This document shows, one piece after another, positions 14,097 to 64,000 of a stretch of 64,000 bases of DNA. Made by a program: the position numbers and the translations under genes. This stretch comes from Dudresnaya verticillata (Eukaryota): assembly GCA_977862235.1 (NCBI GenBank), contig OZ374558.1, forward strand, positions 2,976,001 to 3,040,000, written 5' to 3'. A model generated the notes under the pieces. The model was not told the origin of the DNA and did no database searches. It worked only from the letters and a program-made list of their open reading frames with translations. Positions within the stretch are counted from its first letter, which is position 1. Every line of letters starts with the position of its first letter.

Positions 14097-14636
14097 TATC
14101 TGGATACGAGTGTGTCTTCTAACTCGTTCTGTCTTGAATCTCATGGACTTGGTAGTCAACACGCATTTGAGCGATTTCAGAATATGACTTTTAAAACAGA
14201 CTGGAGTCGGATAGCTATTTTCTGGAATTGTTGGAAAGGAGAGCGTCCCCTGAGTACGGTGGTGAAATCGGATTGGCCAACAGACCATCCCTTCCAAAGT
14301 TATGGCGGTTTGCGTGAATTTACCCGACATATTTCCAGGTATTCTGAATTTTAATTTCCTTGCGGCGATTTGGCCCGCGCGGGCCACTCCGCGGTCCGCA
14401 CTGGGCCAATTTGGACATTGCCGGCCCGGAGCAGTCCTCGGGGCGCGCGGCCCTGCAGGCGCGCCGCATTGCCCACCACGCCCGCGCCGCGCGTGCTGGG
14501 CGCCGCATACAGACTACCCCGCTTCCAGTTTTTCGGCTTTCTGGTGCAACGGGTGCACTGTGCTTTGCGCGTCTGTGCACAAATGCGCACGCGACCGCAT
14601 ACAGACTGCCTCCTCTCCAGCTCCCCCGCCCCGTCC

Positions 14637-17012
14637 TTGTTCATTGGATCTGGCCAGTGTCTCCTTCGTGGTCCGCAACTCGGCCTCAACATACTCCTTC
14701 TGACTTCTAACATCGGCCAATCGCTCTTCACCCCGCCTGATCACTCCTTCAACTTCATCAACGTGATAACGAAGGCGGTTAAGCTCGTCGGTCTGGCCAC
14801 ACTTCGTATCACTAAGACGGCCAATGCTCTGGTTCAGCTGACGCAAGATGTTGGCCAAAGACATTTGGTTAACATGGCCACGCACGGAAAGTTCAGCCAC
14901 CACATGCGGATGAGGATGCAGGATGCTGGCCCGCACGATGGAAGCGTCATTGGCCACTTCAATTCCAAAGCTACTGTCATGTCAAAAAGTCACTTGTTTG
15001 TTCCAGTCGAAGCCACAGTACTTCTCATTAATGGCCAGCTCTTCGTTGAAACAAATGGTCGCGGTGCAATACTGTGTCGGCTAACTTCTCATACAACGAT
15101 ACACCATCTGGACAATACACATGATTGAACTGATGATGATGCTCCTGGCTGACGGGAAGGTAAGTGAGATCTTTCACCACCTCAATCCGTCAAGAAATGG
15201 CCTGGGTGGACATCCACCACATCCTCTTCGACGCCTGCGCTTCGTAGCGGAAGAAGATACTGGCCATTACATGCAACTCGACGATGGCAGTCTCCTGAAA
15301 GCATTCAACCCAAGTAGGGTCAAGGGACTGACGACGATATTGGCCAACAAAATACTATGCCAAAGGGCTAAGAAGGCCAGCTTCACCTCTCGATGGCCAC
15401 TCCTTCCAAAGAAATGCGGGAACACTAGGGAAGTATTCGATTGCGGGCCAAACCCCTTGTTGACCACGAATACTTCCTTGGTAGACATAGCTACTTCCCG
15501 TGCGATGGGCCAGCCAATCTTCCGGCGCTATGATGCGACGAAGATCTGTACTGGCCATTTTCGCATTCCGAACGGCCGTCCTTTCCCAGCGATCGAGCAT
15601 CCAAGAATGGGGGAAAGCGTAATACCAAGTGGGGGCGTGAGGGTACACACTGGACTCGCCTTTGAACATCAACCAAGCTCCATGGACAAACATTACGTAT
15701 CGCGCACACAGCAGGAAGGCTCGGTCGCACCCGATATCCGAACCAATCCAATAGAGATGGCCATTCTCGTGCGATTCGCGATATTGATGCCACGCCTCGT
15801 TAAGAGGGCAGTGGCTTTTACGAACTCGAATCATGTCCAACTTGTCACTATTGGCCACCAATTCGGCGTAAGATATGTCCACTCGAGGTAGCTTTGGCCA
15901 GATAGAGGTTCCTGGCAAACGTCCGTCCAAAATCAACTCGGGGCCATCCTGATCTTCTAGGCTCCGAGGGAGGTGGACGCGGAAAGGTACAGAAGCACGA
16001 GTATGAGAATCCGACTCACGATCCTGATGCGCTGGAACAGAACGGCCAGCACTCGAACTCGGTTTATCCTGGCCAGTCTTAGTGACGTCCAAAGTCTCTT
16101 CGCGCGGGATAACTTCCTTCACGCGAGGATCCTCGCTTTGGCCAGATGACTTGGGCGGTGGGCCTGCAGATGGAATGGAAAGATATTGGCCAGCATTGAG
16201 TTCATCAATGTCGGGAAGCAAAGACACAAATCGACGACGGTCGCCGTCCGACATAAGGTTGGCCGGAGGAATAGGTGTAGAAGCATCCACATCAATAATT
16301 CCTGCATGAGAAGACTGACCAGTTTCCTCGCTTGGCAACCGTTGCTTCTTGGGAGGTGGACCTTTCACAGCTGGCTTCCCAATATTCAGTTTGGCCAGTT
16401 GACGCGCCCGGCTCCACTGCCGTCGGCATGAGGGGCGAAGGGACAGAGCGCAACCGCGGGGTGGACTTCCTTGAAGCGCTCGGTGTGGCTGAACGCGACG
16501 TCTTACGCGGCACGGGAATATCGGCAAAAGCATCCGGAGCCTTCTGCTCTGGTCCACTCTCATCCTTCTTCTTCTGGCCAATTATCTCCTCACTGGCCAA
16601 GGCATCTTCTCGAGCAGGGACAAAAGTAGGGGCCAAGTCAGAAGCCATCGGCTGGGCCTCGATTACCTCTTTGGCGGCCTCCACCGTGGCCTGAGCTACA
16701 AGAGGGCGGGCAATAGCTGCCACGGCCTTCGCAATGGGATCGGCCAGAGGCGGGGGAGTAGGATTGATGGCCGCCGGAGCTGAAGTACTTGCGAACGGTG
16801 CCAACTTCGAAGCCGTTGCACTTTGACCAACCTCAGCCGGAGGCCAAGCCGACGATCGGCCCAACCAACAGAAGACACTTGGCCAATGGGGCCGTGACGC
16901 CGGCGTGCGGACGACGGTGAGTGCACACAAGTATGCGACGTGTCCACCGAGTGTACACGTGGCTCACACGAGGCCACCCATGACACCGAAGCGCACCACG
17001 TGGCACGCTATA
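14637..17012 (-). pseudogene. Truncated, internally deleted second copy of the Gypsy-1 accessory ORF and its leader
   Basis: Protein fragments 14514-14957, 15355-16581 and 16292-16930 match the 53252-56650 product, with stops and frameshifts. Confidence 0.92.
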
Positions 17013-17019
17013 CCTTCAG

Positions 17020-46700: not shown

Positions 46701-46738
46701 ACTGTTCCCATGCCCCGAGCAACAGCTGAGAACAAGAA

Positions 46739-47656
46739 TTAACTACGTCTACGCTTCCCCAATAATTGTACCTTCAAATCATACACTTCTCCCACATGCA
46801 ATTTCTTGGAAGCATTACCGGCACACATGTTAAAGGTAACCTTGGACAACTTCACGGGTCACTCTTCTTCCGAGTCCCAGATGAGACTTCTTCCTGCATC
46901 GACTACAACGCAATGATCCATCGACGGAGGATCACACAACCTCACAAGCCACACACCCCTGTCTTGGTTAGTTATCCAACTAAACCCATCCTTCCTCATT
47001 TCCTTCTTCACCTTCTTGGATAAGCCCACAATAGTGAGCCCTTCACACAACTGGTGAATCAATGGACCAAGCTGACCCAGCTTGCAAATATGCTGTGGCA
47101 TGTCCTTCAATTTCTCCTGCACCTTGAGACCCATCTCAATCCCGCCGAGACAAGTAACAGCATTCACGACTGAAGCCCGAGCACAGGACATGAGATTGCG
47201 CCGCGCAAATACTCGGTTTGCCTCTCGGTAATGATTCTGAGCCAACGATGCGTTCTTATTACGCGCACCGGGACCGCCAAGCAGAACTGCAAGGCCCTTA
47301 TTGCGTCTGCAGAAGCACAGCAGACAGTCGACAAGATTGTTGTCCCACTCCTGTCCGACATTCCAGTCAAGGTCCTCTTCGGTTAGGACACACTGTCTTG
47401 GATAATTATTCCGCGACCTTTCCAACGCCAGCGATGGGAACTTGAAGCCAACTTCTCCGCGATACGACAGCAAAATCGACTCTGGATCGATGGTGTGGGA
47501 ATTTTCGTGACCACCTGTCATCTTCGCAGAAGCGTACACGCAACCGTCAAGCAAGCGTTTTCCGTTTTCCCCACTGCCCTTGGAGCCATCACCCACAAGG
47601 ATTGCTTCGAACTCCCACGGGACACCAGGCACGCTTTCCACAGTGCCCTGCGCCAT
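46739..47656 (-). CDS. Antisense accessory ORF, papain-fold cysteine-peptidase-like; one in-frame TGA at 46859-46861
   Basis: SCARASVVNAV...DHCVVVD....IWDSEE gives a Cys-His-Asp order. The frame stays open for 39 more codons after the TGA. Confidence 0.55.
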
Positions 47657-49036
47657 CGCTGTCGGTTACTGTAATGCAGATCGCGCGTCCTCCTCAGGGT
47701 TGGTTGTTCCCCCTTACAGAAGCCCAATATCGTCCGAAGAACATAAGGGATACTGACCAGGTTCACGAAGTAGCCTCTGGGCTCCGCCACGCAGCACAAA
47801 AATGGCGCACGCTACCGGGAATTCGGTACAGTAATTTACGCAGTGTACAAGCGCACCGCACAGTAACCCGTAAGAGCAACGGCGCTCCGGCGCACTCCAG
47901 TGCGCAGTTGACACCGTACTCGGGACACGGCTGCACACCAACGGGAACGAGGGACGCAGACGCAGCAACACGGCTCCAGAGTGATGACCAGGCTGCGCTC
48001 GAGCGGTTTAGGCGGGCAGCTATGGTCATATATACAGTATGTGCAAGAACTCACACACTCCTCGGCCACCGTAGGCGAATTTGCCGGTACTGCACGCATT
48101 GGCCTATTTTTCCTAAGTTTGGGAGGGGTGACTGTAACGGGTAGTGTAAGTTATGTACTGTAAGATAGGCTAGCGCCGTCGGTACGGACGACGCCGGATC
48201 CCTCGACGAGTGTGGGACCGAACCCTATATCAAGGGACACAGTACCCGCGCCACTCCGCTATCATAGTCATCATATTCTCTTACCAATAAACCTCTGTGT
48301 CACCCACACTACGTGAGCACGAAAACACGTCAACGCGGGAGACGGTTCGTACTCGAATGATTCGTAACGGCGTCGGTGCCAACGAACGGTCGTCTCACGT
48401 ATCGTGACGGTTACGAAGTGCGCCAGCATGCATACGGAGGTGCACCCGCGTCGTGGGCCGCGGTGCCGTTACGCACAGGAAACAACGGGAAGATCATGAA
48501 GGTTTCAGCGATTTCGTATCGGGTGCGCACTGTAATGCGAATGCCATCGTGGCGCGCGCGATCACGAAGTCCGCTCGGAATTCGTCCGGAGGTGTCAGCG
48601 ATTTCGTATCGCGTGCGTGCTGTAATGCGAATGCCATCGTGGCACGCGCAGAGTATGCGCACTGTAATACGTTTGCCATCGTGGCGTGCGCATTCACGGA
48701 GTCACTTCGAAATTCGTATTTCTCGATTATTTTTCACGTAGACCACGGAGTCGTTTTGCGCATAGCGTCTATACCACAGGTTTACTTGGCTTTGAATGTG
48801 AGGATATGAGTCAGGGGGCTGAAGCTGTTGGCAGAGAGCGCAGTGAATTGGGGATGTAATGAGAGCTCTAGTCAGTGCGCTCAATAGGATGTCAGTTGAC
48901 AACATTTTAAATGCAGATGACAAGGACATTTTTGAAGTAGTGGACGACAGTGAGATGGCTCGCGCCATTGCGTTGGATTTATGTCCCTCTATTGGGCAGG
49001 GTAGTTTTGACAAGGAAGGAACTTGTGGTATACCGA

Positions 49037-50552: not shown

Positions 50553-51109
50553 TGTCACTGTGACAGATGAAAAGGAAATGATTACTTTATTGGAGAAGTA
50601 GTAATCATCAGTAACCATGACTAACCAAGGAAGGCGTAAATGCTAGAACAATTGCAGAGATTGGAGGCGTTAATGCCAAGTAGAATGGTGTAACGAAGGA
50701 AAGAATTTGAAGAGAAAGAGCAGGGCGGGAGGGTGGGAGAACGAAGCAAAGAACTTGCCGAGTAGGGCAGTGAGCTACTGTAGGGTGAGTCTTATATACA
50801 GCTTGGCCGAGTTAAAACTCGGTCATGGGATCGCTGCTTGTGTGAAGAAGCCACCCACAAAATTGCGCGACCTAGCATCATCCAGAAGCTGTGTATCAAA
50901 CCACCCAAAAACTGCTCGACCTAGCATCATCCAGAAGCTGGGGTGCAACTAACAGTCCCGATTTGGAGCTGCAATTCAAACAGCGTACCCAAAAAGGGTG
51001 TGAGTTGTGGGACGCTCGGCCTATGCTCGCTACCCTTGGCATGTCTTTTCAGAAGTGTAAAGCGATTAGGACACCCTCTGTAAACCTCTTCTTTAAAGGC
51101 CCGCAAACA
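50553..51109 (-). mobile_element. LTR-like segment truncating the piggyBac gene
   Basis: On the minus strand: a TG start, a ~50-bp tandem repeat (50850-50941), TATATAA (~50792), AATAAA (~50586) and a GTGACA end. No TSD was found. Confidence 0.45.
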
Positions 51110-52249
51110 GCATCCAGTACAGACATACTTTGACTTCTTCGTACCTTTGCAAATATTGCACCGGGCTTGGTATTTGCATTTTGTCGGACTTCCATCCCTC
51201 TTTAAGCTCATGCGACTAGTGGAAACAAGGTTCATGCCTGTTCCAACATAAACATCAGCACAAAAGTCTTCTTCCTCATCCGATGATTCCTGAGACGGTC
51301 CCCGTTGACGCAACCTTATTTCGTCGTATTTGTTCTCGATGAGACCCTCAGGCAGTTGCGAATGGAATTGATGCGGTGTCATCGCCGACCGGTTTCCTTG
51401 ACAACCCTTGTAGACATTCCATGAATGGACAACACAAATGCCAAAAAGTGTAGTGTTGACGCGTGTTGCCCAATCCTTCACTTCAATTTTCTTCTCAAGA
51501 GCAAGGTCATCCTGTCGGCACCTGTTGTGTATGTCAACCTGAGCACAAGTGTTGTAGTAGGACTGACATACAGTTGGAATGTTGACTTCCAATTGCTCCA
51601 ATCTAGTGGCTCCATTACTGATTCCCCAGCGTTCACGGTAGATTGACGTAGTGTTGACTGATGTCGATGCCGTACTGATAAAGTAGCGTCGATTTCTGTC
51701 AACCAACATTAGTGCCATCATTTCAAGGTTCCCAGAAGATGAGACAAGAGAAACATGATCACCCTCATTTGGCATCTCAACATTGGAAAGGTAATCCATG
51801 GGATACTTTTTGGTATATGTCGTGACAACTCCCGTAAATCGTAGCCCTCTCTCATGGAGTGCTTCGGCTCCCTCCACAGAAGCAAAGAAAGAATCGGCAC
51901 AAACCAATCGGTTTGTGCTAAACCAAGGCTCCACTAGTCGTAACATAACAGCTGTTCCATGTCGTAATTCCCTTTCATGCATCCTCTGGGAACTTTGTTC
52001 TGCATAAACAGTCAGTTCCAGTTGTAACATGATTCCACTTCTCCCGCATGCAGCGGACTTCATCTCACACCCATTCTCCGGCTTCCTGTCCATAGCCACA
52101 TAATGAGGAAGACCCTTATTGATCCAGTCCCCACACAGCCCATACCATCGTGACATACTCTCGTCAACACAGATTGCTTCAGATGGTCGTATGAACGTCT
52201 TTCGATGCTCATTTATGTCATTCACAAAAGCTGCCACGTCACTCCACCG
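51110..52249 (-). pseudogene. piggyBac-type transposase (DDE_Tnp_1_7), 5' part cut by the Gypsy LTR
   Basis: Motifs ICVDESM, RKPENG, VCADSFFASV and YYNTCAQVDIHNRCRQ, with a C-terminal CxxC..CxxC. Confidence 0.88.
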
Positions 52250-52577
52250 TGTAGTATCTCTAGAGCACCACCGCGTACGGCAGCCAAACGAGACCCCAAG
52301 AAGACCAAGAAGACCTGTCGGATTTAACCAGAACTGGCCAGAACGTAGAACGAACCTGCGCGCCGGTAGCAAGCGTGGTAGAGCGGGAGCGCGCAGACGA
52401 AGTCGTGGCCAGAATGTGTGATGAGGACAGAAAATGGCCAAGTCGAGGGTTCAGTTGCTAACTTTACTCCGAACCTCTGGCGGGACGGCTTCGTACCCTT
52501 TTCGGCTTAGCCGTAGTGTGTGGCCAGCTAAGTAGGCCCAAAATCGGCCATCTGAGCTAATCTAGAGCTATTCTACA
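52250..52577 (-). repeat. 3' LTR of Gypsy-1
   Basis: TGTAG...CTACA termini, with copies at 17020-17367 and ending at 43503. It begins exactly where the piggyBac homology breaks. Confidence 0.75.
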
Positions 52578-53251
52578 GTTAGTGGCCGAGGTTACTCCGG
52601 TCGGCCATAATATCTACTTGTGTTCCGGCGTCGGGCCAATGTAAGGCCCTTGCGAGACTAAACCAAGTACTTGTGCGTTAATGGTTGGCTCTGCGAGTTA
52701 GATTTTCCCTTGATTTTTCCACTGTCTTCCCATTGACTCACCGTGCGGCCAAATCCAATTTCGATTTGTGTCTGGCCGCAAAATCAGATCATGCGTGTAC
52801 AGCGGGCCACGTGGTGCGCTTCGGTGTCGTAGGTGGCCACGTGTGAGCCACGTGTACAGTCGGTGGCCACGTTTCATACTTGCGCGCGCTCACCGCCGTC
52901 CGCGCGCCGACGGCACGACTTCATTGGCCAAGTGTCTTCGTTTGGTTGGGCCGATCGTACAGTTGGCCCGTCGAGTTGCTTCCTTGTGGTGGCCCCCTTG
53001 CCGTTGCACCACAGAGCCCCCTTCGCAAGCGTGGACTCCTGGCCGCGAGGGTTTCATCTGGCCATATCAGCGCGCGTGATCCGCGCCGCTACCCCTCTCC
53101 CTGCACCCGGCCATCACCATCTCACTCACACCAAGTTTCCTCTTACCAACACTTGCCAAAACATCGCGCGGACGTTCTCGCTCCTTGCCAACTTGCGCGC
53201 GCCTTCCCTTGCTTCGGTCTCCAACGTGTGCGTCTGGCCAGTTCGCTCTCG

Positions 53252-56200
53252 ATGGCGGGTGGCCCTGCGAAAGCGCGTCCGCGCCGCACCGCATCGGCCA
53301 AGAAGAAGACTGTACGGCCGACCGTTTCTTCTAGTTCATCATCTACACCGCTGTCGAGCGACGAAGAAGTCGCTGTGGCCAAAGTGAAGGCGACCACGAA
53401 GAAGACTGGCCAGAGTTCGAGGCCGCGTGCGATGAAGGCGCCCAGGGCATCTTCCGCCCCAGCACCCAAGACCCCAAGTCGTGCATCTAACGATCCGTTG
53501 GGTGCTGCGAAGGCTACCGCAGTGGAGAAGCCCATCAAGACTGGCCAGAAGAAGAATGTTGCTGCCTCTGCAACTCCGGCCATGGTGCTAACTACGCCCG
53601 ATGTTGGCACCGACGAGTTAATGCAGGAGATCGCGGCCAGTCAGAAGAGACGCGAGGCTGAGGAGCAGCAACTGGCCAGCTTAAAGAAGAAGCTTGTCGA
53701 TGCGCAGAAGGCCAAGGTGGCGCGCAGCGTGACTATCGTCGCATCATCCTCGTCGGAGGAGGTAGCGGCTGCAACAGGCCAACTTGGAAGGGGCAAGCCG
53801 ACTGCATCCTCTGTTGTCGGCCCGCTAGCGAAGGAGACTCCAACAACTGGCCAGAAGGTAGCAGAAGCGCCTGAGGAAGGGTTGGTGCAGGCCGAAGTGA
53901 AGCGCCTCGAGGCGAAGAAGTTGATGCCGGCCGCAAGCACTTCGGTGCCAACGGCCATTAATCCTACTCCACCGCCGTTGGACAGCGCTGTTGAGAAGGC
54001 TGTTTTTGCCATCTCTCGTCCACTGGTTACTCAAGCTACTACTGCGGCAGCCGAAGAAGTAGCTTCGGTTCAGCCCGAGGTTTCCGATTCGGCCATGGTA
54101 TTTGTGCCCGCTCGAGAAGAACCGCTGGCCAGTAAGGAAGAGTTACCTGGAAGAGTTGAGAAGATTGGGTCAGAGCAGAAGAAAGGAGATAAGCCGGAGC
54201 AGAAGGCCCCAGAAGCTTTGGCCAATATTCCCGTGCCACGCAAGTCTTCACGTTCGGCGACACCAAGTGCTTCGAGGAAATCTACGCCGCGACTGCGCTC
54301 GGCTCCTTCGCCTTTCATGCTGACGGCTGCGAGCCGTGCGCGTGAGCTGGCCAAATTAAACATCGGCAAGCCCGCTGTTCAGGGTCCTCCCGCGAAGAAG
54401 CAGCGGCTGCCTCCTAAGGACGTTGGCCAGATATCTCGCGACGAAGTTATTGACGTCGATGCTTCCACACCGATCCCGCTGGCCAACCTCATGTCTGACG
54501 GCGATCGGCGTCGGTTTGTGGCTTTGCTCCCCGACGCCGATGAGCTTAAAACTGGTCATTCTTCGTCTACGCCTCCTGCAGGCATGCCGCCCAAGTCATC
54601 TGGCCAGAGTGAAGATCCTCGCGTGAAGGAATTTATTCCGCGCGAAGAGGCTTTGGATATCACCAAAGCTGGCCAGGATGTCCCAAGTTCAAGTGCTGGC
54701 CCCTCTGCTCCAACTCATCCAGATCGTGAACCAGCTTCGCACACTCGTGCTGCTGTCCCTTTCCGTCCCGACCTCCCACCGGGCCTAGAAGATCAGGATG
54801 GCCCCCAGTTGGTTTTGGACGAACGGTTGCCCGGTACTTCTATCTGGCCAAAGCTTCCTCGAGTGGATATTCTCTATACCGCGTTGGTGCCCGATAGTGA
54901 CAAACTGGACATGATTCGCGTGCGGGAAAGCCATTGCCCTCTCAATGAGGCGTGGCACCAATATCGCGAGTTGCATGAAAATGGCCATCTCTATTGGATC
55001 CCTTCGGAGATTGAGTGCGACCGTGCCTTCTTGCTGTGCGCGCGGGATGTGATGTTCGTCCACGGAGCTTGGTTGATGTTCAAGGGCAAGTCTAGTGTGT
55101 ACCCTCATACTTCCACATGGTATTACGCCTTCCCTCACTCGTGGATGCTTGAGCGCTGGGAGCAGACGACCGTGCGAAACGCAAAAATGGCCAGTACAGA
55201 TCTTCGTCGCATCATAGCGGCGGGAGATTGGTTGGCCCATCGCACAGGTGGTAGCTATGTCTACCATGGCAACACTCGCGGCCAGGAAGGGTTTTGGCCC
55301 CCTGTCGAGTACTTCCCTAGCGTTCCCGCTTTTCTTTGGAAGGAGTGGCCATCGAGAGGAGAAGCTTGTCTACTTAGCCCCCTGGCTTATTATTTTGTTG
55401 GCCAGTATCGTCGTCATGCGCTCGACCCCACTTGGGTTGAGTGCTTCCAGGAAACCTCTGTCGTGGAGTTACACGTAATGGTCAGTATCTTCTTCTGCTA
55501 CGAAGTGCAAGCGTCGAAGAGGATGTGGTGGATGTCTTCTCAGACCATTGCTCGACGAATTGAAGTGGTGAAAGGCATTATTTATCTCCCCGCCAGCCAG
55601 GAGCACCAGCATCAGTTCAACCATGTGTATTGGCCAGATATTGTATCGTTGTACGAGAAACTGGCCGATACAGTGCTTCACCGCGACCATTTGTTCCAAC
55701 GTCGAGCGGGCCATGATGAGAAGTATTGCGGCTTCGACTGGAACAAGCAAGTGACTTTTCGGCACGGTAGTAGCTTTGGAGTTGAGGTGGCCAATGACGC
55801 TTCCATCGTGCGGGCCAGCATCTTGCATCCTCATCCGCATGTGGTGGCCGAACTTTCTGTACGTGGCCATGTTAACCAAATGTCTTTGGCTAACGTCTTG
55901 CGGCAGCTGAACCAAAGCCTTGGCCGTCTTAGCGACACGAAGCGTGGCCAGACCGATGAACTCAACCGCCTTCGTCACCATGTTGATGAAGTGGAAGGAG
56001 TTATCAGGCGGGGCGAAGAGCGGCTGGTCAATGTTAGGAGTCAGAAGGATCAGATTGAGGCCGAGTTGCGAGCTGCAAAGGAGTCACTGGCCAGGTCCAA
56101 CGAGCAATGTCTCGAGTGGAAGAGGCAGCGCGACCGTTGGTGCGACGAAACCCATAACCAACAGGCCTTACTCGACTTGGAGCGTAACCGTGGATTTCAT

Positions 56201-56650
56201 CAGCTGGCCAGTTTGCGTGCAGTTTATGCACCGTCTGTCTTTGGCCAGGTGCCTCAGTTTCCGCTGTCTTCCCTGCCAACGCCTGCGCCGGCTCCAACCA
56301 TGCCGCAATATCCTGGGGTCTCAGTGGCACCGGCCACAACCCCCACGCTGTCTTACGCTGGTGATGTCTCTGGTCATCCGCGCGCGCCGTCTCGACCGGC
56401 TGATTATCAGCCAGAGCCAACTCGTCCGGTGGTGTCGGCTCTACCTACTCCTGTGGCCAATGTTGCTCAAACTGGCCATGTTCCCGGCCGTTTGGCTCTG
56501 CCGATCACTTCGCCCTTCGTGACGCCGCCAACTGTTCCCGCGACGGCCCCACGTGCGCCTGCGACAGCGCCTCAGGCGCCTTCACAGGCAAGGAGCAGAG
56601 AGCCCTATGCTTCGGGTTATCCTCGCTCGCCAAGTCCTTATGGCCGTTAG
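53252..56650 (+). CDS. Accessory protein of unknown function (1132 aa), antisense to gag-pol
   Basis: Uninterrupted ORF with a basic low-complexity N-terminus, a Trp/His/Tyr-rich core, a coiled coil and a Pro-rich tail. The second copy shows synonymous changes. Confidence 0.88.
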   Translation: MAGGPAKARPRRTASAKKKTVRPTVSSSSSSTPLSSDEEVAVAKVKATTKKTGQSSRPRAMKAPRASSAPAPKTPSRASNDPLGAAKATAVEKPIKTGQKKNVAASATPAMVLTTPDVGTDELMQEIAASQKRREAEEQQLASLKKKLVDAQKAKVARSVTIVASSSSEEVAAATGQLGRGKPTASSVVGPLAKETPTTGQKVAEAPEEGLVQAEVKRLEAKKLMPAASTSVPTAINPTPPPLDSAVEKAVFAISRPLVTQATTAAAEEVASVQPEVSDSAMVFVPAREEPLASKEELPGRVEKIGSEQKKGDKPEQKAPEALANIPVPRKSSRSATPSASRKSTPRLRSAPSPFMLTAASRARELAKLNIGKPAVQGPPAKKQRLPPKDVGQISRDEVIDVDASTPIPLANLMSDGDRRRFVALLPDADELKTGHSSSTPPAGMPPKSSGQSEDPRVKEFIPREEALDITKAGQDVPSSSAGPSAPTHPDREPASHTRAAVPFRPDLPPGLEDQDGPQLVLDERLPGTSIWPKLPRVDILYTALVPDSDKLDMIRVRESHCPLNEAWHQYRELHENGHLYWIPSEIECDRAFLLCARDVMFVHGAWLMFKGKSSVYPHTSTWYYAFPHSWMLERWEQTTVRNAKMASTDLRRIIAAGDWLAHRTGGSYVYHGNTRGQEGFWPPVEYFPSVPAFLWKEWPSRGEACLLSPLAYYFVGQYRRHALDPTWVECFQETSVVELHVMVSIFFCYEVQASKRMWWMSSQTIARRIEVVKGIIYLPASQEHQHQFNHVYWPDIVSLYEKLADTVLHRDHLFQRRAGHDEKYCGFDWNKQVTFRHGSSFGVEVANDASIVRASILHPHPHVVAELSVRGHVNQMSLANVLRQLNQSLGRLSDTKRGQTDELNRLRHHVDEVEGVIRRGEERLVNVRSQKDQIEAELRAAKESLARSNEQCLEWKRQRDRWCDETHNQQALLDLERNRGFHQLASLRAVYAPSVFGQVPQFPLSSLPTPAPAPTMPQYPGVSVAPATTPTLSYAGDVSGHPRAPSRPADYQPEPTRPVVSALPTPVANVAQTGHVPGRLALPITSPFVTPPTVPATAPRAPATAPQAPSQARSREPYASGYPRSPSPYGR

Positions 56651-57570
56651 TTGTCAAGGTCTTGGATTAGTAGTTGGCCAGCTCGTCTTGTGCTCTTATG
56701 CTGGCCAATGAGATGTTGTTAGTCTTGTGATTTCCTGTGTCTTGTGTTTGCGTTGTCAAAATTTGGTGGCCAAGTTAGTGCGTCTAAGGTTGGACAGACC
56801 CCCCCTTGTCCTTGGGGGTTAATGAGTCTGTCCGGCCAGTCTTGAGTTAAAGTGCACTGGTTACCTTCAAAAATGTTGCGTGTTATCGTGGCCAGTTACT
56901 AGTCAAATGGGGCTGTAAGGCCTTTGTTAGTTCGGGTCAGTAGGTCTTGCTTCTGGCCAATGCTCATGAGCACAGCTGGAAAAACGGGGTTAAGGGAGTC
57001 AGTGGTTAAGTCAAAGCAAAAAAATGGCCAGTGCGAGTGGTGGGGTGGAGTGGCCTTGGTGTGGGGCTACCTTCTTCAAGGCGCCGAAGGAAGAGTAATG
57101 GCCAGCTATTGTCTTCTTCTCACCGGCTTCAAGCACCTCATCTGGCCATGTCTTCTTCTCTGGCCAATTTCCTTCTTGTTGTCGGTAGGGGCTATCGTCG
57201 TTTCCCCTGTTCTCTCACTCTGCGCAAACCCCCCGCTCGGGAGCACGACGCGTGGGAATTAGAGTTACCTGGAAAAGGCAACAAAAGATGAGGTAGTTTC
57301 TACCGTCCATTTACACCCACTGAATTTCGGCGTACACCGGGAGATTTGCTGGCCGCGACTTTCTCACACATGATTGGTCAGCTTACATTATTCTGGGTTA
57401 ACCCTAAACACCGCCGTCTTGTTTTTGGTGACGGGGTTCCAGCCGGGGTTATTTTGTCACCCAGCATCTCCTTCCTCCGTCCACAACCACCCCGCATCTC
57501 CGTCTTCACAAGTTTTTGGCCAGACTCTGACTCCTCTCGCTTGACTTCCCTGGCCATGTCGAGGTTGACC

Positions 57571-60500
57571 TCACGAACTGTTTTGGCCCGGCGTAGCTCG
57601 GCGCTTCATGCGCGCGAAGAAGCGGGACACCAACGTGGCCGGCAGAAGAGCCTCGGGTTCCCAGGTTCGGCCATTATACCCATACCACTTGACCTGAAAC
57701 CACCGCTGGCCAGTTGAATCCTCGCGCATATCCGTGAGCTTGTCAATGACATATTCCTCGGCCGACGCAGCGACTCCTTCTGGAAGGGTTCCCAATGCGG
57801 CGCTGACTATTGTCTCCGTAGCCATCGGTTGCCCTTGTGGCCTGGGCGCGGCTACTACTCGGTCCGAGCTAACACGCTCTAGTTGGCCAGCTCCGTCTAT
57901 GACGAACGTACGGCCATCATTGCTTATAATTTTGTATGGCCCCTGGGCATGATGCTCTAGTTTCTTTGGCTGCTTTTCGGGGTTGTCCAGGAAGACAAAT
58001 CCCCCAGCGGCCAGCATATTATTCCCCGTTCTAACCGAGCGGTCAAAGTCCTTCTTGTAGCGCGCTTGTGTGCGAGTTAAACTGGCCGAAGCTTTATCCA
58101 CGGCCTCTGATAATCGGCGTAAGAACGCTTCTTTGACAGTCCCTGTTGGCTTTGGCCGGTTTAACGTAGCTTCAAGTGAGAATTGACTCGGCGGCCGACT
58201 GAGAACCAAGTCAAACGGCGTGGTTCCAGTTGAGCGATTTATATGGCAATTATAAGCATACGTCAATGCCGCAGCGTACTCATCCCAGTCAGTCTGATGT
58301 TCATTCACGTAGCTCCTCAGCATTGCGGCCAATGTTCGATTGTACCTTTCCACTTGGCCATTTGTTTGTGGATGATATGTTGTTGTGAAGATGTTGGCCA
58401 CCTGTAATTGTCGGCAGACTGCCTGGAAGAACTTGGCCGCAAACTGCCCTCCGTTATCGGTAAGAACTGTCTTTAGTGCGCCGTACTTGAAAATCTAGTG
58501 AACGCAAAACCCCGTGGCCACATTATAGGCGGTTATCTTCGTCAAAGGCACCACCTGAGTCAGCTTCGAGAAGCGACATTTCATGACTAATATGTGCTAG
58601 AACCCCTTCTTAGTTCTGGGGAGTGGCCCGAGGAGGTCCATGGCCACACTCTCTAATGGTTTACTGGCCGGGAACAGCTGTAACTTCGATGTATGTCGGA
58701 GACGACGAATCCGGTTTTTGGCGCAATGGCCACAGTTCCGAACTGTTGCTAGGCAATCAGCGGCCATGTGGGGCCAATAGTATGTCCGTCGAAGAGTCTG
58801 ATACATTCGATTCTGGCCAGGGTGACCTGCCAGAACGGTATGGTGACACAACCGAAGAATGCGGCCATGTAACAAGGCTGGAAGCACTATTTGTTTCTGG
58901 CCATCTGTCGGACAACGCCTGTAGAGGACCCCATCGACTCCTTCGAAGAAGAGAGGTTTCTTGGGTCGTCCCAGGCCAGTTCGCGTGGCGAGAATGGTCT
59001 GGCAGAAGTCATCGCTTTTCTGGCCTTCTATTATTTCAGTCTGTGTTACTGGTGTTGGGAGGATCTCTGCTGTCTTCCCTTCCATTTGTGCACGACTGAA
59101 GACTTCCGCCCGGCCATAGTCCGTATAATCGGCCATCAAATGTTCCTCTTCCCATGCGTCGACTCCATCGTCTCTTTCTCTCCTGTCGGCCATATTAATT
59201 TCTCGATTTCTCCGGGCCCGCGTGGTCGTGAGAATAGAGGGGGTACCGTCCAATACAGGTACATTATCATCTATTGGCCGTGCATCTCCGCTCTCTTGCG
59301 AGGCCACCAAGCGGGACAAGGCATCGGGTACTTGGTTCTTACGCCCCGTTTTATACTCAATCACAAAGTCGAACTCGGCCAGACGTAGTCTCCATCTTGT
59401 AAGACGGCGAGACGAATCAGTGAGCGACATCAACCAACGGAGGGCATCATGGTCCGTACGAACTGTGAACTTTGTACCTTCAACATATGGCCGTAATGAT
59501 GTAATTTGCCCACACCACAGACAAACACTCGCGCTCCGTGGCCGAATAGTTTTTCTCGGCCGACGTCAGGGAACGAGACCAATATCCCACGGGATGGTAC
59601 GACTCGTCCTCTTGTTCTTGGAGCAGAACGCATCCAATCTGATATGCGCTGGCATCGGTCTCAATCACATATGGCCGACCGTATCTAGGTAAGGCCAGAA
59701 TCGGCGGCGAGACGAGAGCGGCCTTCAGTTTCTCGAAGCTATGACATTGTTCCTCCGTTGGCCGTTCGAAGTCTGGCTCGGCATCCTTGCACAACATGCG
59801 CGTAAGTGGCCGTGCGATGGTGGAGAATTTGGCCACAAACCTTCGGTAGACATTGCAAGCGCCCAAGAAGGACCGGAGTTCCGTAAGAGATCCTGGAAAC
59901 TCGGCCTCTTGTATTGCCTTGGTACCCTGCATGGCCATACTTAGTTTTCCGGGGGTCACTACATGGCCCAGATAATCTACTTTGGCCTGAAAGAAGGAAC
60001 ACTTCTTCAACTTCAACGTAATGCCGGCCGCCTTCAACAAGGTTAGGACCTCGTCTAGATGGCCAAGATGATCCTCCACACTTTTGGAGAACACGATGAC
60101 ATCGTCCAGATAGATGAGGCAGATCTGCCATCGGACGCCAGAGAGAACTATGTCAAGCGCGCGCTGAAATGTGGCCGGTGCGTTCTTCAAGCCAAACGGC
60201 ATTCGATTGTACCTGAATGTCCCCAAGTGAGAGGTGAAAGCCGTCTTATCCTTGTCCTCCTCGGCCACTGGTATTTGCCAATATCCGGAGTTGCAGTCCA
60301 AGGTTGAAAACTCGGCCGCATCCCCAAGGGAGTCTATACAATCTTCCATGCGCGGGAGCGGGTATGCGTCACCAACTGTCTTCGCATTGAGTCGGCGGTA
60401 ATCGACGCAGAAACGATGCCTTCCTTTTTCGGTACCATCACAATTGGCGAGGCCCATTCTCCTTGCGATGGCTCTATCACTCCGGCCTCAAACTGCTTCC

Positions 60501-62000
60501 TAATGTCGGCCTCTGCGATCGCGCGTAACGTTGGTCCCTGTCGGCAGGGCATCGCTATTATTGGCCGGGTTCCATCTTCCAAGTCTATCCGATGTTCGGT
60601 GGCCATGATCTGTCCCAGGGAACCGTCCCACATTGCAATGTGTTTCTCTAGAATGGCCATTATCTTTTCGCGTTGTTTCTTGTCCGGAATATGATCAATC
60701 TTGATCTTATCCCGCCATTCTTGTGCCTCTTGTCTGGGTACCTTTGGTTCTGAAGGCTCACCTGTTTCTTGGCCAGATTCTTCTACTTCTACTTGACTAC
60801 TATCCTGACCCACAGGTGGAGTAAGCCCAAGTACACTGGCCATATTCTCCACACTCCGTCGGTGTGGCGTCAGGATTTCCATGGGGTGGCGGACAGCATA
60901 GCCGACCACGGTACCATTTGGCAGTAAGACATCCTTTCTTCCCCAGTTGGCCAGCATTACCTGGAATGGTTTCTGCGGCCGAACTTCGGCAACTCCATTG
61001 GCCATCCGCGTATGGTGCCGAAAGCTCAAAGAATGTTTGGGCTCCAACACACATAATCCTCGGCCATCGCTGCGAACAGACACGGTGGCCTGTTGGCCTG
61101 CCTGTATGGTTAGACCTTTCGTCAATCGTACAGTGGCCGCGTAGTGTCGCGGGGTCTTGCGTTCCGTACTGGCCGAATTGGAATTACCCGGAGGCCGGGC
61201 CCCCTTCGCAGCGGTTGGCTCTGGCCCCAGAGCCATCGAAGTGCTGTCGGGTAACAAAGGAAGGACGTCACCGCGCACTAAGTGCACGGTCTGTGCACGG
61301 CACTGGATGCTATCCACGTGCGTGTTCAGAAATTTCGTACCCAACAAAACGGGTACGGCAAAGCGAAGGTCAGCGATAAGGAACGGCACTCGATATGAGT
61401 GACGGCCTAAGCGTACGACCAAGGAAACGGCCCCTCGAAAATGAATCGGCCGTTGGTTGGCGTCCCCCAGAAGGGGTGGGGACGTCAACGCAAGTGCGTT
61501 GTCCTTCCAGTTGGGAGGCAACGCATCCAACCGGATGATGTTTCAACCCGAGCACGTGTCTAAGACAATTGGCCCGGGTAACAAGGCGGACATCGTGAGT
61601 CCAAATGAACCCGAAAGGGTATAGTTGGCCCCACCCAGGATGCAGACCATACCTTGTGATGAAACACTGGCCAGTTGGGATTCCTCTTGCTGTTCGTCGT
61701 TCGATGATTTGCGGCCACTCTTTGGCAACGAACCCCCGTTTGTGGTGGGGGTGGATGATGATGTAGTATGGCCAGATCTCCAGGGCGGTGACCACACCAG
61801 AGCGTTAGATGAAAATGGGCAGTGGTAGGTCAAATCATGGGTTGACCAAACCTGGATTGGCGTTGCCAAACGCCATGCAATGGCTAACAAAGAATATAAA
61901 TGGAGATGACTAAAAGGAAATAACTTAACTGAAACGAGACTATCCGGTTTTGGGACGTGTACGGGCAACGGGATCACGACCGAAGATCTCGGCCCGGCTA
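57571..62000 (-). pseudogene. Gypsy pol (PR, RT, RNase H, integrase, chromodomain) with several frameshifts and stops
   Basis: Motifs VLDTCSG, MPFGLKNAPATFQ, YLDD, ETDASAYQIG, HHCC zinc finger, YHPQTNGQVERYN, GPY and EEYVIDKL..VKWYGY..TWEP. Confidence 0.95.
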
Positions 62001-62007
62001 GTTTCCC
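61962..62007 (-). promoter_or_regulatory. Putative -1 ribosomal frameshift signal (gag-pol)
   Basis: G GGA AAC lies immediately before the gag TAG. The -1 frame is open into the protease and a GC-rich stem follows. Confidence 0.7.
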
Positions 62008-64000
62008 GACGCTAACGAAGAATTATCGGACTCCACATCGGCCACCACCTCATCCAATGGATGTTCTTGCGTAGTGACTAACGTGGCCTGCCGATTCCCA
62101 CGGTTCGAAGATGATTGTTGTGGCCGTCGGAGTATTCCCTGAGGGGGAGGGCGTCCCCTTCCATCCCCAAAGGAGACATTCCTTTGGTATGGGCGGTAAC
62201 CGCGACCACCTCGGCCAGCAAACTGTTCAGGGTGCCATCTAGGGAATTCATCTCGGAAGCGGAAGTTACGTATGGCAAACAAGTTCCTGATGGCCATTGG
62301 TAAGTACACACAAGTGTACAAATCATGGCCCCATTCGCGACAACCCCAACAACGGGCACTGGTTTTGTCACTGCGTAGCATAATAGCGACTTTGGCCAGC
62401 TCATCCGATGTTAACGTCGGAGGTTTTCGGAGTGGGTCCGGGGTATTACCCCCGGACACCGACCCTGCCGGTGACGGCGTGGTCGGCGTCATCTTCGGTG
62501 TTTGCTGAGCACCATTCTGGCCAGGGGTAATGGCCATAACCAGTATGGTGTCAAACGGATCATCATAGTTGGCCTCTATATCCTCCGGCTCTGCCTGCCA
62601 AGCAGGTTCGGCCGCAAGGGTAGGGATGTCCAACGCACTTCGAGAACTGGCCGACCCTGTTTTGGGTCGTGCAGAAGCCAAGTAGGCTCTGTGTGTCTCC
62701 CCCTCGGCGATGGCGATACGGCGCACCGTCGAGAAGTCCTTCTCCTCCGGCCGCATCTGCATAAGCTTCTCAGCTACGGCCGAACGAGTAGTCGAAGGTA
62801 AACCCCTCACATAATTGTTGATCAGGGTGTTCTCCGAGAAGACATCGGCGCACGACAGCGCCGCGTCCCCTAACCGGTCAGCGAATTCCGCTTCTGTCTC
62901 GGTATCTTTCTGTTTGCTTCTGGCCACTTTGTCGAACGCAGCGGCCAGAACATCTTCGGTGCAGTAGCGTTTGATGAGAGCGTGGACTAATTGTGGCCAG
63001 CTGATTTGTGAAAATCCACTCATCGGAAAGATGGAGTGTACTAACCTTATACCACGGGAAATTCGGCCAGAATAGAACCTCTTCGCATCACCGGCCGTAA
63101 ACAAGGCCAGTAGACGCAAAGCGGCCCCTTCATGGACGTTTTTCCCATCACAGGCGTCCTTGAACGCCTTGAGGAAGGACAGGAGCTCGATCGGACGTCG
63201 GCCATCAAATGGGTTCATCTGCGGGAACAAGTTCCGGATTTGGCGAGTCATCCGGGACAAGCGCCGCGCATCCTCCATAGTCATCGTTGGCCGAGTATCC
63301 AAAAGGCGGTGGGTCCGGTAATCCACCACCCGCCGGAAGGGTTCTTGGAGGGTCTTGAGAGGCTCTAGACCTGGTTCCATTGGCCCCATCATCGCGACAG
63401 GAAGACCTGTTTCATCCAACTGGCCAGTGTATCCCATGGAAGGGTCCCCTGCATCAACTGGCCCCGAAGGTCCAACTAAAGCAGGCCGTGGGGCGGCACC
63501 ACTGTTCTGAGTGTTGCCCTCTTGCGGTGGTACCCCTTCTTCAGGAATTTTTGGCCGAGCCTTGTCAGGATGCGACAAGGCTGTTATCTCATCTTGCAAC
63601 TTATCCAGTTGCTTCTGCACTGCTGCTACCGGTTCACCCACCTGCGGTGCCAAGACTGGTAGGTTGGCCGGTGTTATCCGAGCGGACTCGGACCTTGTCT
63701 GGCCAGGGAGATCAGGGAGTTTTACCTTCCCGTCGGAAGAGAAGACGGCCTTCTCAACCTTTTCCAGACGCTCATCATAACGTTCCGCTATGGCCGTAAG
63801 TGCACCGTCTAGGATGACGGAGTGTATCTCCTGGCGAAGCTGTTGGTCCCTAATCAGAGCCGTGGTGGAAATCTTGACTTGCATCTCGCCAAACTGGTTC
63901 TTCACCTCTTGTTGCCACTCGGCTGTACGTCGCTTATACTGGTAGAACTCTTGCCGGCCCAACCAAACGTCGTGTTCTGGCTGGGAATCATCATCAACTG
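61998..64000 (-). CDS. Gypsy gag (5' partial)
   Basis: The frame is open to the window edge, with a capsid-like region and the knuckle CWGCREWGHDLYTC. Confidence 0.9.
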   Translation of the reverse strand, partial: VDDDSQPEHDVWLGRQEFYQYKRRTAEWQQEVKNQFGEMQVKISTTALIRDQQLRQEIHSVILDGALTAIAERYDERLEKVEKAVFSSDGKVKLPDLPGQTRSESARITPANLPVLAPQVGEPVAAVQKQLDKLQDEITALSHPDKARPKIPEEGVPPQEGNTQNSGAAPRPALVGPSGPVDAGDPSMGYTGQLDETGLPVAMMGPMEPGLEPLKTLQEPFRRVVDYRTHRLLDTRPTMTMEDARRLSRMTRQIRNLFPQMNPFDGRRPIELLSFLKAFKDACDGKNVHEGAALRLLALFTAGDAKRFYSGRISRGIRLVHSIFPMSGFSQISWPQLVHALIKRYCTEDVLAAAFDKVARSKQKDTETEAEFADRLGDAALSCADVFSENTLINNYVRGLPSTTRSAVAEKLMQMRPEEKDFSTVRRIAIAEGETHRAYLASARPKTGSASSRSALDIPTLAAEPAWQAEPEDIEANYDDPFDTILVMAITPGQNGAQQTPKMTPTTPSPAGSVSGGNTPDPLRKPPTLTSDELAKVAIMLRSDKTSARCWGCREWGHDLYTCVYLPMAIRNLFAIRNFRFRDEFPRWHPEQFAGRGGRGYRPYQRNVSFGDGRGRPPPQGILRRPQQSSSNRGNRQATLVTTQEHPLDEVVADVESDNSSLASGN

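What the first reader, a model, noticed from the sequence alone, without database searches (positions are those of the whole stretch)
53252..56650. Intact 1132-aa antisense accessory gene inside a chromodomain Gypsy, apparently under purifying selection
Seen: an uninterrupted ORF lies between pol and the 3' LTR on the opposite strand, while pol itself carries several disablements. A diverged second copy (14637-16930) keeps the Trp-rich core. In IVRASILHPHPHVVAELSVRGH all four nucleotide differences are synonymous (CTG/TTG, GCT/GCC, TCC/TCT, GTG/GTA). Known: antisense extra ORFs occur in plant Tat/Retand Gypsy elements, and VANDAL transposons encode VANC anti-silencing proteins. Inference: this may be an uncharacterised nuclear or chromatin-acting accessory protein; I recognise no domain in it.
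Basis: partly seen in the sequence, partly recalled or inferred. Interest (0 to 1): 0.85.

Follow-up and report, generated by a model that had tools for sequence, protein, structure and literature searches.

The report
Antisense accessory gene in Gypsy retrotransposon
A decayed Gypsy-type jumping element carries, backwards between its polymerase gene and its end repeat, an intact 1132-codon gene kept by selection on its protein, which has no known domain and likely makes a nuclear regulator of the element, a kind of extra gene already known from plant and fungal elements.

Summary
An ATG-to-stop ORF of 1132 codons lies at 53252-56650 (+). It sits tail-to-tail with a minus-strand Gypsy gag-pol that has 3 in-frame stops and 2 frameshifts. 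A 764-bp LTR lies 240 bp upstream of the ORF. A second, dead copy (16813-14637, minus) is 80% identical in DNA. dN/dS between the copies is 0.12 over 589 codons, and 196 of 313 differences are at third positions. So this is a real, selected gene.

A palindrome, YGGCCR (mostly TGGCCA), occurs at 12-17 per kb in the LTR, ORF, spacer and gag-pol, against 1 per kb in the rest of the window. This marks them as one element.

The protein has no Pfam domain. HMMER against 1.84 billion proteins gave only 3 weak, unnamed relatives with the same layout (core domain plus coiled coil). AlphaFold failed on the core.

Best reading: a new protein family in the known slot of antisense additional ORFs (aORF-3R; Grande, RIRE2, Retand, Boty). 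It is not a member of the Retand TRP28 family. Function is inferred only: a nuclear, self-associating factor, possibly binding the element's own palindromes.

No genome, RNA data or context of relatives could be obtained.

The parts
52250..53013 (-). 3' LTR of the Gypsy element (764 bp, TGTAG...CCACA on the + strand)
   Evidence: Both ends are shared with two other copies in the window, about 17025-17706 (87%) and 43266-43949 (79%). The right end is uncertain by about 4 nt. The 5' LTR lies beyond the window and was not seen.
52800..52880 (.). G-box-like block in the LTR: three CACGTG (52808, 52838, 52849), most within (T)GGCCACGTG. Candidate antisense promoter or enhancer for the ORF (inferred).
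   Evidence: This is the LTR piece that copy 2 keeps next to its ORF (16852-17013, 87% identical).
53014..53026 (-). Polypurine-tract-like run (GAAGGGGG on the minus strand) beside the LTR. It sets the LTR's orientation as that of the minus-strand Gypsy.
   Evidence: Read from the sequence. No TGG-type primer binding site follows the LTR on the + strand.
53252..56650 (+). Antisense additional ORF (aORF), 1132 aa, intact
   Evidence: dN/dS 0.12 against copy 2.
53252..54811 (+). aa 1-520: low-complexity, basic, Ala/Ser/Pro/Lys-rich half with no Trp or Cys, carrying NLS-like clusters (KKK 17, KRR 132, KKK 145, PAKKQR 380, RRR 419). Predicted disordered.
   Evidence: aa 221-359 still have dN/dS 0.19. 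aa 1-220 are absent from copy 2.
54800..55600 (+). aa 517-783: conserved core domain of unknown fold. The aromatic-rich region extends to about aa 870 (55861).
   Evidence: An HMM built only from the three outside relatives hits it with 102 bits. dN/dS is 0.06-0.10 in 60-codon windows. No Pfam hit.
55880..56107 (+). aa 877-952: predicted coiled coil
   Evidence: Best heptad run in a crude scan. It is the only part of the AlphaFold model with pLDDT 60-81, and it is helical. The weak PDB and Pfam matches here are to coiled-coil proteins only. The relatives also match here, 17.5 bits.
56132..56647 (+). aa 961-1132: Pro/Ala-rich tail
56651..57570 (.). 920-bp spacer between the two convergent stop codons, with 11 TGGCCA and 13 YGGCCR
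   Evidence: No tandem repeat found by TRF.
57571..64000 (-). Gypsy gag-pol with chromodomain, running off the window. At least 5 lesions in pol.
14637..16813 (-). Dead second copy of the aORF (aa 221-952): 3 in-frame stops, 2 frameshifts, cut by a Copia at 14637
   Evidence: 73.8 bits to the HMM of the outside relatives.
16852..17013 (-). LTR fragment attached to copy 2, in the same orientation relative to the ORF as in copy 1
   Evidence: 87% to 52958-52797.

Best explanation
The ORF at 53252-56650 is a real, selected protein-coding gene that most likely belongs to the minus-strand chromodomain Gypsy element as an antisense additional ORF between pol and the 3' LTR, and its product is predicted to be a nuclear, coiled-coil, self-associating protein that would act in trans on copies of the element.

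Shown:
- The ORF, its position and its strand.
- Strong coding constraint between two diverged copies.
- A DNA signature (YGGCCR palindromes) shared by the LTR, ORF, spacer and gag-pol and absent from the rest of the window.
- A core-plus-coiled-coil module conserved in three distant, unnamed relatives.

Inferred:
- Transcription on the + strand starts in or just inside the 3' LTR, where a conserved block of CACGTG boxes lies, as for HTLV-1 HBZ or maize Grande gene23.
- The basic N-terminal half brings the protein to the nucleus and to nucleic acid.
- The coiled coil pairs two chains.
- The ~270-350-aa core is the working part. It helps the element's expression or a nuclear step of its cycle, so active lineages keep it.

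The most specific form of this reading is that the paired protein reads the element's own TGGCCA palindromes. That is a guess (see the section on the most novel reading).
For: - ORF intact over 1132 codons.
- Nei-Gojobori comparison with copy 2: 589 codons, pS 0.48, pN 0.086, dN/dS 0.12. Every 60-codon window is at or below 0.25. Differences by codon position are 80/37/196, p = 7e-29. The disordered part, aa 221-359, has dN/dS 0.19.
- LTR with defined ends in three copies, and a purine tract on the Gypsy strand beside it.
- Copy 2 keeps an LTR piece next to its ORF in the same relative orientation.
- TGGCCA: 74 seen against 4.1 expected in 52250-64000, and 25 against 1.0 in 14637-17706. The top hexamer of the other four regions reaches only 3.3-5.1 fold.
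- YGGCCR: 11.8-17.5 per kb in the LTR, leader, aORF, spacer, gag-pol, copy 2 and both extra LTR copies, against 1.0 per kb in the other 47 kb.
- With the protein held fixed, synonymous-codon shuffles give 6.2 +/- 2.3 TGGCCA in the aORF (most 13 in 300) against 26 seen. GGCC exceeds every one of 300 shuffles in the aORF and in all five gag-pol segments, but in none of the three control ORFs.
- Relatives: 3 of 1.84 billion representatives, E 1e-7 to 1e-3. An HMM made from them alone scores 106 bits on the ORF.
- One relative's 90% cluster has 9 members on short contigs, two of them with frameshifted tails, as expected of a multi-copy, decaying gene.
- No orthologue series of the kind a host gene would have.
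Against: - The 5' LTR lies outside the window, so the element is not closed.
- The ORF is seen next to pol in only one copy.
- Copy 2's surroundings are rearranged: an inverted LTR copy abuts its LTR fragment.
- LTR pieces are 87% identical while synonymous sites of the ORF are only 52% identical. The two copies therefore have a mosaic history, and the LTR pieces may not be cognate.
- No RNA evidence of any kind exists.
- No fold was obtained, so nuclear location, pairing and nucleic-acid binding rest on composition and a heptad pattern.
- The genomic context of the three relatives is unknown.
- Intactness of the ORF beside a dead pol is only weakly unusual (P = 0.02-0.07).
Confidence: 0.72

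Rival explanations
1. Domesticated or free-riding gene. The ORF began as an element gene but is now kept for the host, or as a trans-acting supplier for other copies, in a copy whose gag-pol is dead.
For: The ORF is intact over 3.4 kb, while pol has 5 lesions in 4.4 kb and copy 2 has 5 in 2.2 kb. Poisson P of no lesion is 0.022 at pol's rate.
Against: P rises to 0.07 if the intact 2-kb gag is counted. A single copy cannot show host-level selection. The measured dN/dS covers the whole path between two element-borne copies, one of them dead, and does not isolate the recent branch. The locus is a nest of transposons, not a typical place for a host gene.
Confidence: 0.1
2. A host gene, or a gene captured once, that merely lies between a solo LTR and a 3'-truncated Gypsy.
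For: The element cannot be closed within the window. The N-terminal 220 codons are absent from copy 2.
Against: Two diverged copies in one 64-kb window, each beside the same LTR family. The YGGCCR signature is shared with gag-pol and the LTR beyond what the protein sequence requires. A purine tract lies at the LTR edge. Only 3 distant, unnamed relatives exist among 1.84 billion representatives, one of them multi-copy with frameshifted members.
Confidence: 0.08
3. A separate mobile element, for example a non-autonomous LTR element read on the + strand whose only gene is this ORF, adjacent to or nested in the Gypsy.
For: The LTR lies directly upstream of the ORF, as a 5' LTR would. Copy 2 has no pol beside it.
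Against: No TGG-type primer binding site follows the LTR on the + strand; instead a purine tract lies there on the minus strand. No repeat boundary lies between 56650 and 57571. The motif density is continuous across the junction. Copy 2's far side is cut off by a Copia insertion, so its lack of pol says nothing.
Confidence: 0.06
4. What matters is the antisense RNA (a source of double-stranded RNA or a regulator), and the ORF is incidental.
For: Antisense transcripts without coding role are known in other elements (PMC7264820, passages read).
Against: dN/dS of 0.12 and the third-position excess show selection on the protein. The protein module is conserved at 23-27% identity in distant relatives.
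Confidence: 0.03

Closest known systems
Antisense additional ORFs between pol and the 3' LTR (aORF-3R) of LTR retrotransposons: maize Grande gene23, rice RIRE2, Silene Retand, Phaseolus PvRetro13 (review PMC7264820, passages read)
   Same: Same slot, same opposite strand, and no similarity to proteins of known function. Grande's product is nuclear and has its own upstream promoter. PvRetro13's ORF2 has an SMC-like coiled-coil region. The pol-to-LTR interval here is about 4.56 kb, within the 2.9-6.6 kb given for Retand elements.
   Different: No sequence relative among them appeared in a search of 1.84 billion proteins. This element carries a chromodomain, whereas Retand is a non-chromovirus lineage. 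The ORF is long (1132 aa). The spacer has no tandem-repeat array.
TRP28 (Transposase_28, PF04195) antisense proteins of Retand elements (PMC11963269, abstract and passages read)
   Same: [quoted passage not shown]
   Different: PF04195 does not match this ORF even at E <= 1. According to that paper, TRP28 appears to be confined to flowering plants.
brtn, the antisense gene of Boty-like chromodomain Gypsy elements of Botrytis (Zhao et al. 2011: citation seen in PMC7264820 and PMC8365987; paper itself not read)
   Same: An antisense extra gene in a chromodomain Gypsy, between pol and the 3' LTR.
   Different: No brtn sequence was at hand, so no direct comparison was made. Earlier notes of this scan, which I did not check, describe brtn-like genes as small, spliced and cysteine-rich. 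This ORF is unspliced, 1132 aa and poor in cysteine (0-2%).
HBZ of HTLV-1, an antisense gene driven from the 3' LTR (mentioned in PMC7264820 and PMC11963269, passages read)
   Same: Antisense to gag-pol, a promoter at the 3' LTR, and a nuclear protein that pairs through a helical zipper (the bZIP nature of HBZ is recalled, not from a call).
   Different: No bZIP or other Pfam domain here. A retrotransposon, not an infectious retrovirus.
VANC anti-silencing proteins of Arabidopsis VANDAL DNA transposons (PMC5735166, abstract read)
   Same: A transposon-encoded accessory protein paired with short target motifs that pile up in its own family. Here an accessory protein of unknown function coexists with a family-specific short motif.
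   Different: A different class of element. VANC targets lie in non-coding regions and often form tandem repeats (abstract), whereas YGGCCR is scattered through coding and non-coding DNA alike. No binding has been shown here, and no sequence similarity was found.

Membership tests
aORF-3R (antisense additional ORF of an LTR retrotransposon) | Lies between the end of pol and the 3' LTR | tested here: met
   Pol stop at 57571-57573, ORF 53252-56650, LTR 52250-53013 with a purine tract at 53014-53026. Caveat: the 5' LTR is outside the window.
aORF-3R (antisense additional ORF of an LTR retrotransposon) | Read on the strand opposite to gag-pol | tested here: met
   ORF on +, gag-pol on -.
aORF-3R (antisense additional ORF of an LTR retrotransposon) | Present in all or most copies of the family, not a one-off transduction | tested here: inconclusive
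   Both stretches in the window that cover this part of the element have it (2 of 2), and they are deeply diverged (dS 0.76). No genome was available for a census.
aORF-3R (antisense additional ORF of an LTR retrotransposon) | Belongs to the element rather than to a neighbour | tested here: met
   Shared YGGCCR excess in the LTR, ORF, spacer and gag-pol, 12-17 per kb against 1.0 per kb, beyond codon-shuffle expectation. No repeat boundary lies between the ORF and pol.
aORF-3R (antisense additional ORF of an LTR retrotransposon) | Transcribed from its own antisense promoter | not testable with these tools
   No sequencing run was listed for the stretch.
Retand/Tat TRP28 aORF | Transposase_28 domain (PF04195) | tested here: not met
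   A Pfam scan at E <= 1 lists only Prominin (14.3 bits) and DUF1664 (10.3 bits), both on the coiled coil and far below cut-off.
Retand/Tat TRP28 aORF | Non-chromovirus Gypsy lineage | tested here: not met
   A chromodomain-like end of the integrase, PF00385 at E 1.1e-4 and 22.5 bits (cut-off 25.1).
env-like sense aORF | Same strand as pol, with a signal peptide or transmembrane segments | tested here: not met
   Opposite strand. The N-terminus is basic and low-complexity, and I saw no hydrophobic signal or transmembrane stretch when reading the sequence.
Boty brtn | Sequence similarity to brtn | not tested
The broad HMMER search gave no named hit.
VANC-like sequence-specific anti-silencing factor | Binds short motifs enriched in its own element and removes silencing marks | not testable with these tools
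   Only the coexistence of an accessory protein and a family-specific motif is shown.

The most novel reading that the evidence does not exclude
The element encodes its own reader. The retrotransposon family thus marks its own DNA (or cDNA) for a VANC-like escape from silencing or for a nuclear step of its cycle. This would be a self-recognition system spread over an entire retroelement.
Probability: 0.12. Interest if true: 0.85.

Novelty: new variant of a known kind. Interest (0 to 1): 0.55.

Why it matters
Antisense extra genes of LTR retrotransposons have been known for about 25 years, and none has an established function (PMC7264820). This one offers unusually clean material:

- It is long and intact.
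- It has dN/dS 0.12.
- Its core-plus-coiled-coil module is also found in three very distant unnamed relatives, so it is a family rather than an orphan.

It also comes with a sharp, testable lead. A six-base palindrome is kept throughout the element at 12-17 times the density of the rest of the window. If protein and motif belong together, this would show how a retroelement recognises its own copies. If they do not, the motif is still an unexplained constraint on a whole retroelement, and it gives a cheap way to recognise fragments of this family.

Tried and rejected
- **Whole genome:** none held, so no copy census, no LTR-pair dating and no tree-based dN/dS.
- **Sequencing runs:** none was listed, and no RNA holder was listed.
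- **Word-indexed protein searches:** near lengths, shorter and a 4-sequence alignment gave nothing beyond P0001.
- **ESM Atlas:** no usable hit for the core. For P0001 the best score was 0.76, below use.
- **PDB by sequence:** only coiled-coil proteins, E >= 0.57.
- **AlphaFold2:**
  - The single sequence of aa 521-872 gave mean pLDDT 31.8.
  - The 4-sequence alignment of aa 500-960 gave 39.4, with only the coiled coil above 60.
  - I therefore ran no fold search, because the core model carries no information.
- **Context of the relatives:**
  - Metagenome contig scans with P0011 and with the core found no confirmed locus.
  - Viral contig scans with P0011 and P0001 found none.
  - The look-up of encoding contigs is closed.
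No verdict.
- **Earlier findings of this scan:** nothing by place, sequence or 'TGGCCA'.
- **Literature:** 'TGGCCA' plus 'retrotransposon' gave 29 papers. None of the 15 listed looked relevant by title or abstract start.
- **RNA-level test of the motif:**
  - Predicted unpaired probability of TGGCCA is lower than for GC-matched hexamers: 0.20 against 0.33 on the genomic strand, and 0.14 against 0.34 on the ORF strand.
  - This follows trivially from many self-complementary copies lying within reach of each other. It does not separate a DNA role from an RNA role.
- **Rejected reading, Trp-rich core as a side effect of the motif:** only 3 of the 26 TGGCCA in the ORF encode Trp-Pro, so the core's Trp content (4.6%) is not explained by the motif.
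- **Tandem repeats in the pol-LTR interval, as in Retand:** none in the spacer.
Full report
**1. The observation**

An ATG-to-TAG ORF of 1132 codons lies at 53252-56650 on the + strand. A Gypsy gag-pol lies downstream of it on the minus strand (Pfam):
- gag: 62001-63998, still open at the window's end
- RT and RNase H: 59483-60487
- RNase H and the integrase zinc domain: 58600-59565
- integrase end with a chromodomain-like tail: 57574-58494 (PF00385, E 1.1e-4, 22.5 bits, just under the 25.1 cut-off)

The two genes converge, and their stop codons are 920 bp apart.

Pol is dead. It has an in-frame stop in protease (61543-61545), a frameshift in RT near 60420, a frameshift in RNase H near 59540, and two in-frame stops in the integrase core (58495-58599).

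The second copy exists on the minus strand at 16813->14637:
- DNA identity is 79.6% over 2195 nt.
- Protein identity is 81% for aa 361-821, 84% for aa 815-952 and 65% for aa 221-359.
- It is a pseudogene with 3 in-frame stops and 2 frameshifts.
- It lacks the first 220 codons.
- It is cut at 14637 by a minus-strand Copia.

**2. It is a real gene under selection**

Nei-Gojobori counts over 589 aligned codons give pS 0.48, pN 0.086, dS 0.76, dN 0.091 and dN/dS 0.12. Each of ten 60-codon windows lies between 0.06 and 0.25. Of 313 differences, 80, 37 and 196 fall at codon positions 1, 2 and 3, chi-square p = 7e-29. The low-complexity stretch aa 221-359 is also constrained (dN/dS 0.19 over 132 codons). 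Because one of the two copies is dead, 0.12 is an upper bound for the time when both were alive.

**3. Does it belong to the Gypsy?**

*The LTR.*
- A 764-bp repeat (52250-53013, TGTAG...CCACA) lies 240 bp upstream of the ATG.
- Its two ends are shared with copies at about 17025-17706 (87%) and 43266-43949 (79%).
- Directly beside it, on the minus strand, is a purine run (GAAGGGGG, within 53014-53026).
- No TGG-type primer binding site follows the repeat on the + strand.
- So the repeat reads as the 3' LTR of the minus-strand element.
- Copy 2 keeps a 162-bp LTR piece (16852-17013, 87%) beside its ORF in the same relative orientation.

*The sequence signature.* This is a second, independent line of evidence, and I did not expect it.
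- TGGCCA occurs 117 times in the window. All but 18 occurrences lie in 14.2-17.7 kb, 43.7-43.9 kb and 52.3-64 kb.
- In 52250-64000 there are 74 against 4.1 expected (18-fold), and in 14637-17706 there are 25 against 1.0.
- The most enriched hexamer of the four other regions reaches only 3.3-5.1 fold.
- The full motif is YGGCCR: 147 of the 211 GGCC in the element fit it, and 74 are TGGCCA.
- Its density is 15.7 per kb in the LTR, 16.8 in the leader, 11.8 in the ORF, 14.1 in the spacer, 12.1 in gag-pol, 11.9 in copy 2, and 13.2 and 17.5 in the two extra LTR copies. In the remaining 47 kb it is 1.0 per kb.
- It sits in all three codon phases of the ORF (TGGCCA 3/11/12) and of gag-pol (YGGCCR 17/42/21).
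- With the protein held fixed and synonymous codons shuffled, the ORF would hold 6.2 +/- 2.3 TGGCCA (most 13 in 300 shuffles) against 26 seen. GGCC exceeds all 300 shuffles in the ORF and in each of five gag-pol segments. It does not in the three control ORFs. The three TGGCCA counted in the piggyBac control ORF fall in its overlap with the LTR.
- Between the two copies, 12 of 15 TGGCCA of copy 1 are kept, against 34% of all hexamer positions (binomial p = 3e-4).

The ORF therefore shares a nucleotide-level constraint with the LTR and gag-pol. This is hard to explain unless they evolve as one unit.

*Weak points.*
- The 5' LTR is outside the window.
- Only one copy shows the ORF next to pol.
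- Copy 2's LTR region is rearranged, with an inverted LTR copy abutting it.
- LTR pieces are more alike (87%) than the ORF's synonymous sites (52%), which implies recombination among subfamilies.

**4. What the protein is**

Layout:
- aa 1-520: basic and Ala/Ser/Pro/Lys-rich, without Trp or Cys, with KKK, KRR, PAKKQR and RRR clusters.
- aa 521-870: aromatic-rich (Trp 4.6%).
- aa 871-960: Arg/Leu/Glu/Gln-rich.
- aa 961-1132: Pro/Ala-rich.

The stretch aa 877-952 is the best heptad run in a crude scan. It is also the only helical part that AlphaFold models with pLDDT 60-81.

Pfam gives nothing. Only Prominin and DUF1664 appear, far below cut-off, on the coiled coil. In particular there is no Transposase_28, the domain of Retand antisense ORFs (PMC11963269, abstract and passages).

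HMMER over 1.84 billion representatives found 3 proteins:
- P0001, 587 aa, E 1.1e-7
- P0002, 234 aa, E 2.3e-5
- P0003, 502 aa, E 9.5e-4

All three are unnamed, without Pfam domains, and from short contigs.

The homology is real. An HMM built from the three outside proteins alone scores 106 bits on the window's ORF: core aa 517-783 at 102 bits, and aa 865-969 at 17.5 bits. It scores 74 bits on copy 2.

P0001 and the longest member of P0003's cluster (P0011, 685 aa) show the same order: a disordered head, the core, a coiled coil, and an Arg/Pro-rich tail. P0003's 90% cluster has 9 members, two of them with frameshifted ends, which suggests a multi-copy, decaying gene there too.

Invariant columns across the four sequences show no evident catalytic set, so the alignment gives no sign of an enzyme (W33, I84-P85, R92, L95-L96, G113, D160, W260 and others). 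No fold could be obtained.

**5. How it most likely works**

Shown: an extra, selected gene in the pol-3'LTR slot on the opposite strand.

Inferred:
- Transcription starts in or next to the 3' LTR. There a block with three CACGTG boxes (52808, 52838, 52849) is the part of the LTR that copy 2 retains.
- The basic head mediates nuclear import and loose nucleic-acid binding.
- The coiled coil mediates pairing.
- The conserved core mediates action on the element's own expression or on a nuclear step of its cycle.

The palindromic, family-specific motif invites the idea that the paired protein reads it, by analogy with VANC proteins and their motifs (PMC5735166, abstract). Nothing here tests that idea. 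The motif could equally serve a host factor, or RNA-RNA pairing between self-complementary sites (one search does not discriminate).

**6. Comparison and novelty**

The slot and strand are those of the known aORF-3R class: Grande gene23, RIRE2, Retand, PvRetro13 and Boty brtn (PMC7264820, passages). Earlier notes of this scan report several fungal cases (I did not check them). It is not a member of the TRP28 family, which I tested, and it is not env-like. The protein family is new to the libraries searched.

I rate it a new variant of a known kind. The anatomy is ordinary for aORFs. What is unusual is the size of the ORF, the clean selection signal and, above all, the element-wide palindrome.

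The intact-ORF-beside-dead-pol contrast is only weakly significant (P = 0.02-0.07). I do not claim domestication.

**7. What could not be done**

There was no genome, no run listed, no context for the relatives, no usable fold and no complex prediction (tool unavailable).

Supplementary files of the cited papers were not opened. They may hold aORF sequences that would allow a direct comparison.

Noticed in passing
window 52250-64000, 14637-17706, 43266-43949: A palindrome, YGGCCR (mostly TGGCCA; top 8-mer CTGGCCAG), is kept at 12-17 per kb through the LTR, non-coding spacer and all coding parts of this Gypsy family, against 1 per kb elsewhere. It exceeds what the encoded proteins require and is conserved between diverged copies (12 of 15). 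I know of no described counterpart. A literature search for the motif with 'retrotransposon' listed nothing relevant.
   Followed up: partly
window 52800-52880 (also 16956-17002, 17582-17632, 43743-43778): Each LTR copy holds 2-3 CACGTG boxes close together, mostly within (T)GGCCACGTG. This may be a two-way promoter or enhancer block. CACGTG is twice as frequent in the whole window as in shuffles (40 against 20), with another cluster of six at 23172-23250.
   Followed up: partly
window 35730-37244 (+) and 37331-39049 (-): Two long intronless ORFs (504 and 572 aa) lie tail to tail. They look like paralogues of each other (similar hydrophobic segments and a shared C-terminal ...NND..G.(D/E)LI(I/M)K...CDS(L/M) stretch). 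Neither has a Pfam domain.
   Followed up: no
window 30633-31592 (-) and 32975-34282 (+): Two intronless ORFs with signal-peptide-like starts. The second (435 aa) is built of cysteine-rich repeats. Pfam gives nothing but a sub-threshold PPC hit on the first. They look like secreted host proteins in a sea of transposons.
   Followed up: no
window 44360-48308: A young 3.9-kb LTR element with 176-bp LTRs 99.4% identical. It has a gag with a CCHC knuckle (45625-46209), but no RT was detected. It also holds a 265-aa ORF on the opposite strand (46859-47656) with no Pfam hit, possibly another antisense ORF in a non-autonomous element.
   Followed up: no
window 5907-14513, with 7868-12191 inside: A minus-strand Copia (gag, Pol_BBD, rve, RVT_2) is interrupted by an RVT_1-bearing element bounded by 225-bp LTRs that are 97% identical. 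The Copia in turn truncates the second aORF copy at 14637.
   Followed up: no
window 50930-52249 (-): A piggyBac-type transposase ORF (DDE_Tnp_1_7, E 1.9e-24) abuts the outer end of the Gypsy LTR at 52250.
   Followed up: no
window 52958-53917 versus 16808-16852: Copy 2 lacks about 900 bp present in copy 1: the inner end of the LTR, the purine tract, the leader and the first 220 codons. Either copy 2 has a deletion, or the N-terminal 220 codons are a later addition in copy 1's lineage.
   Followed up: no
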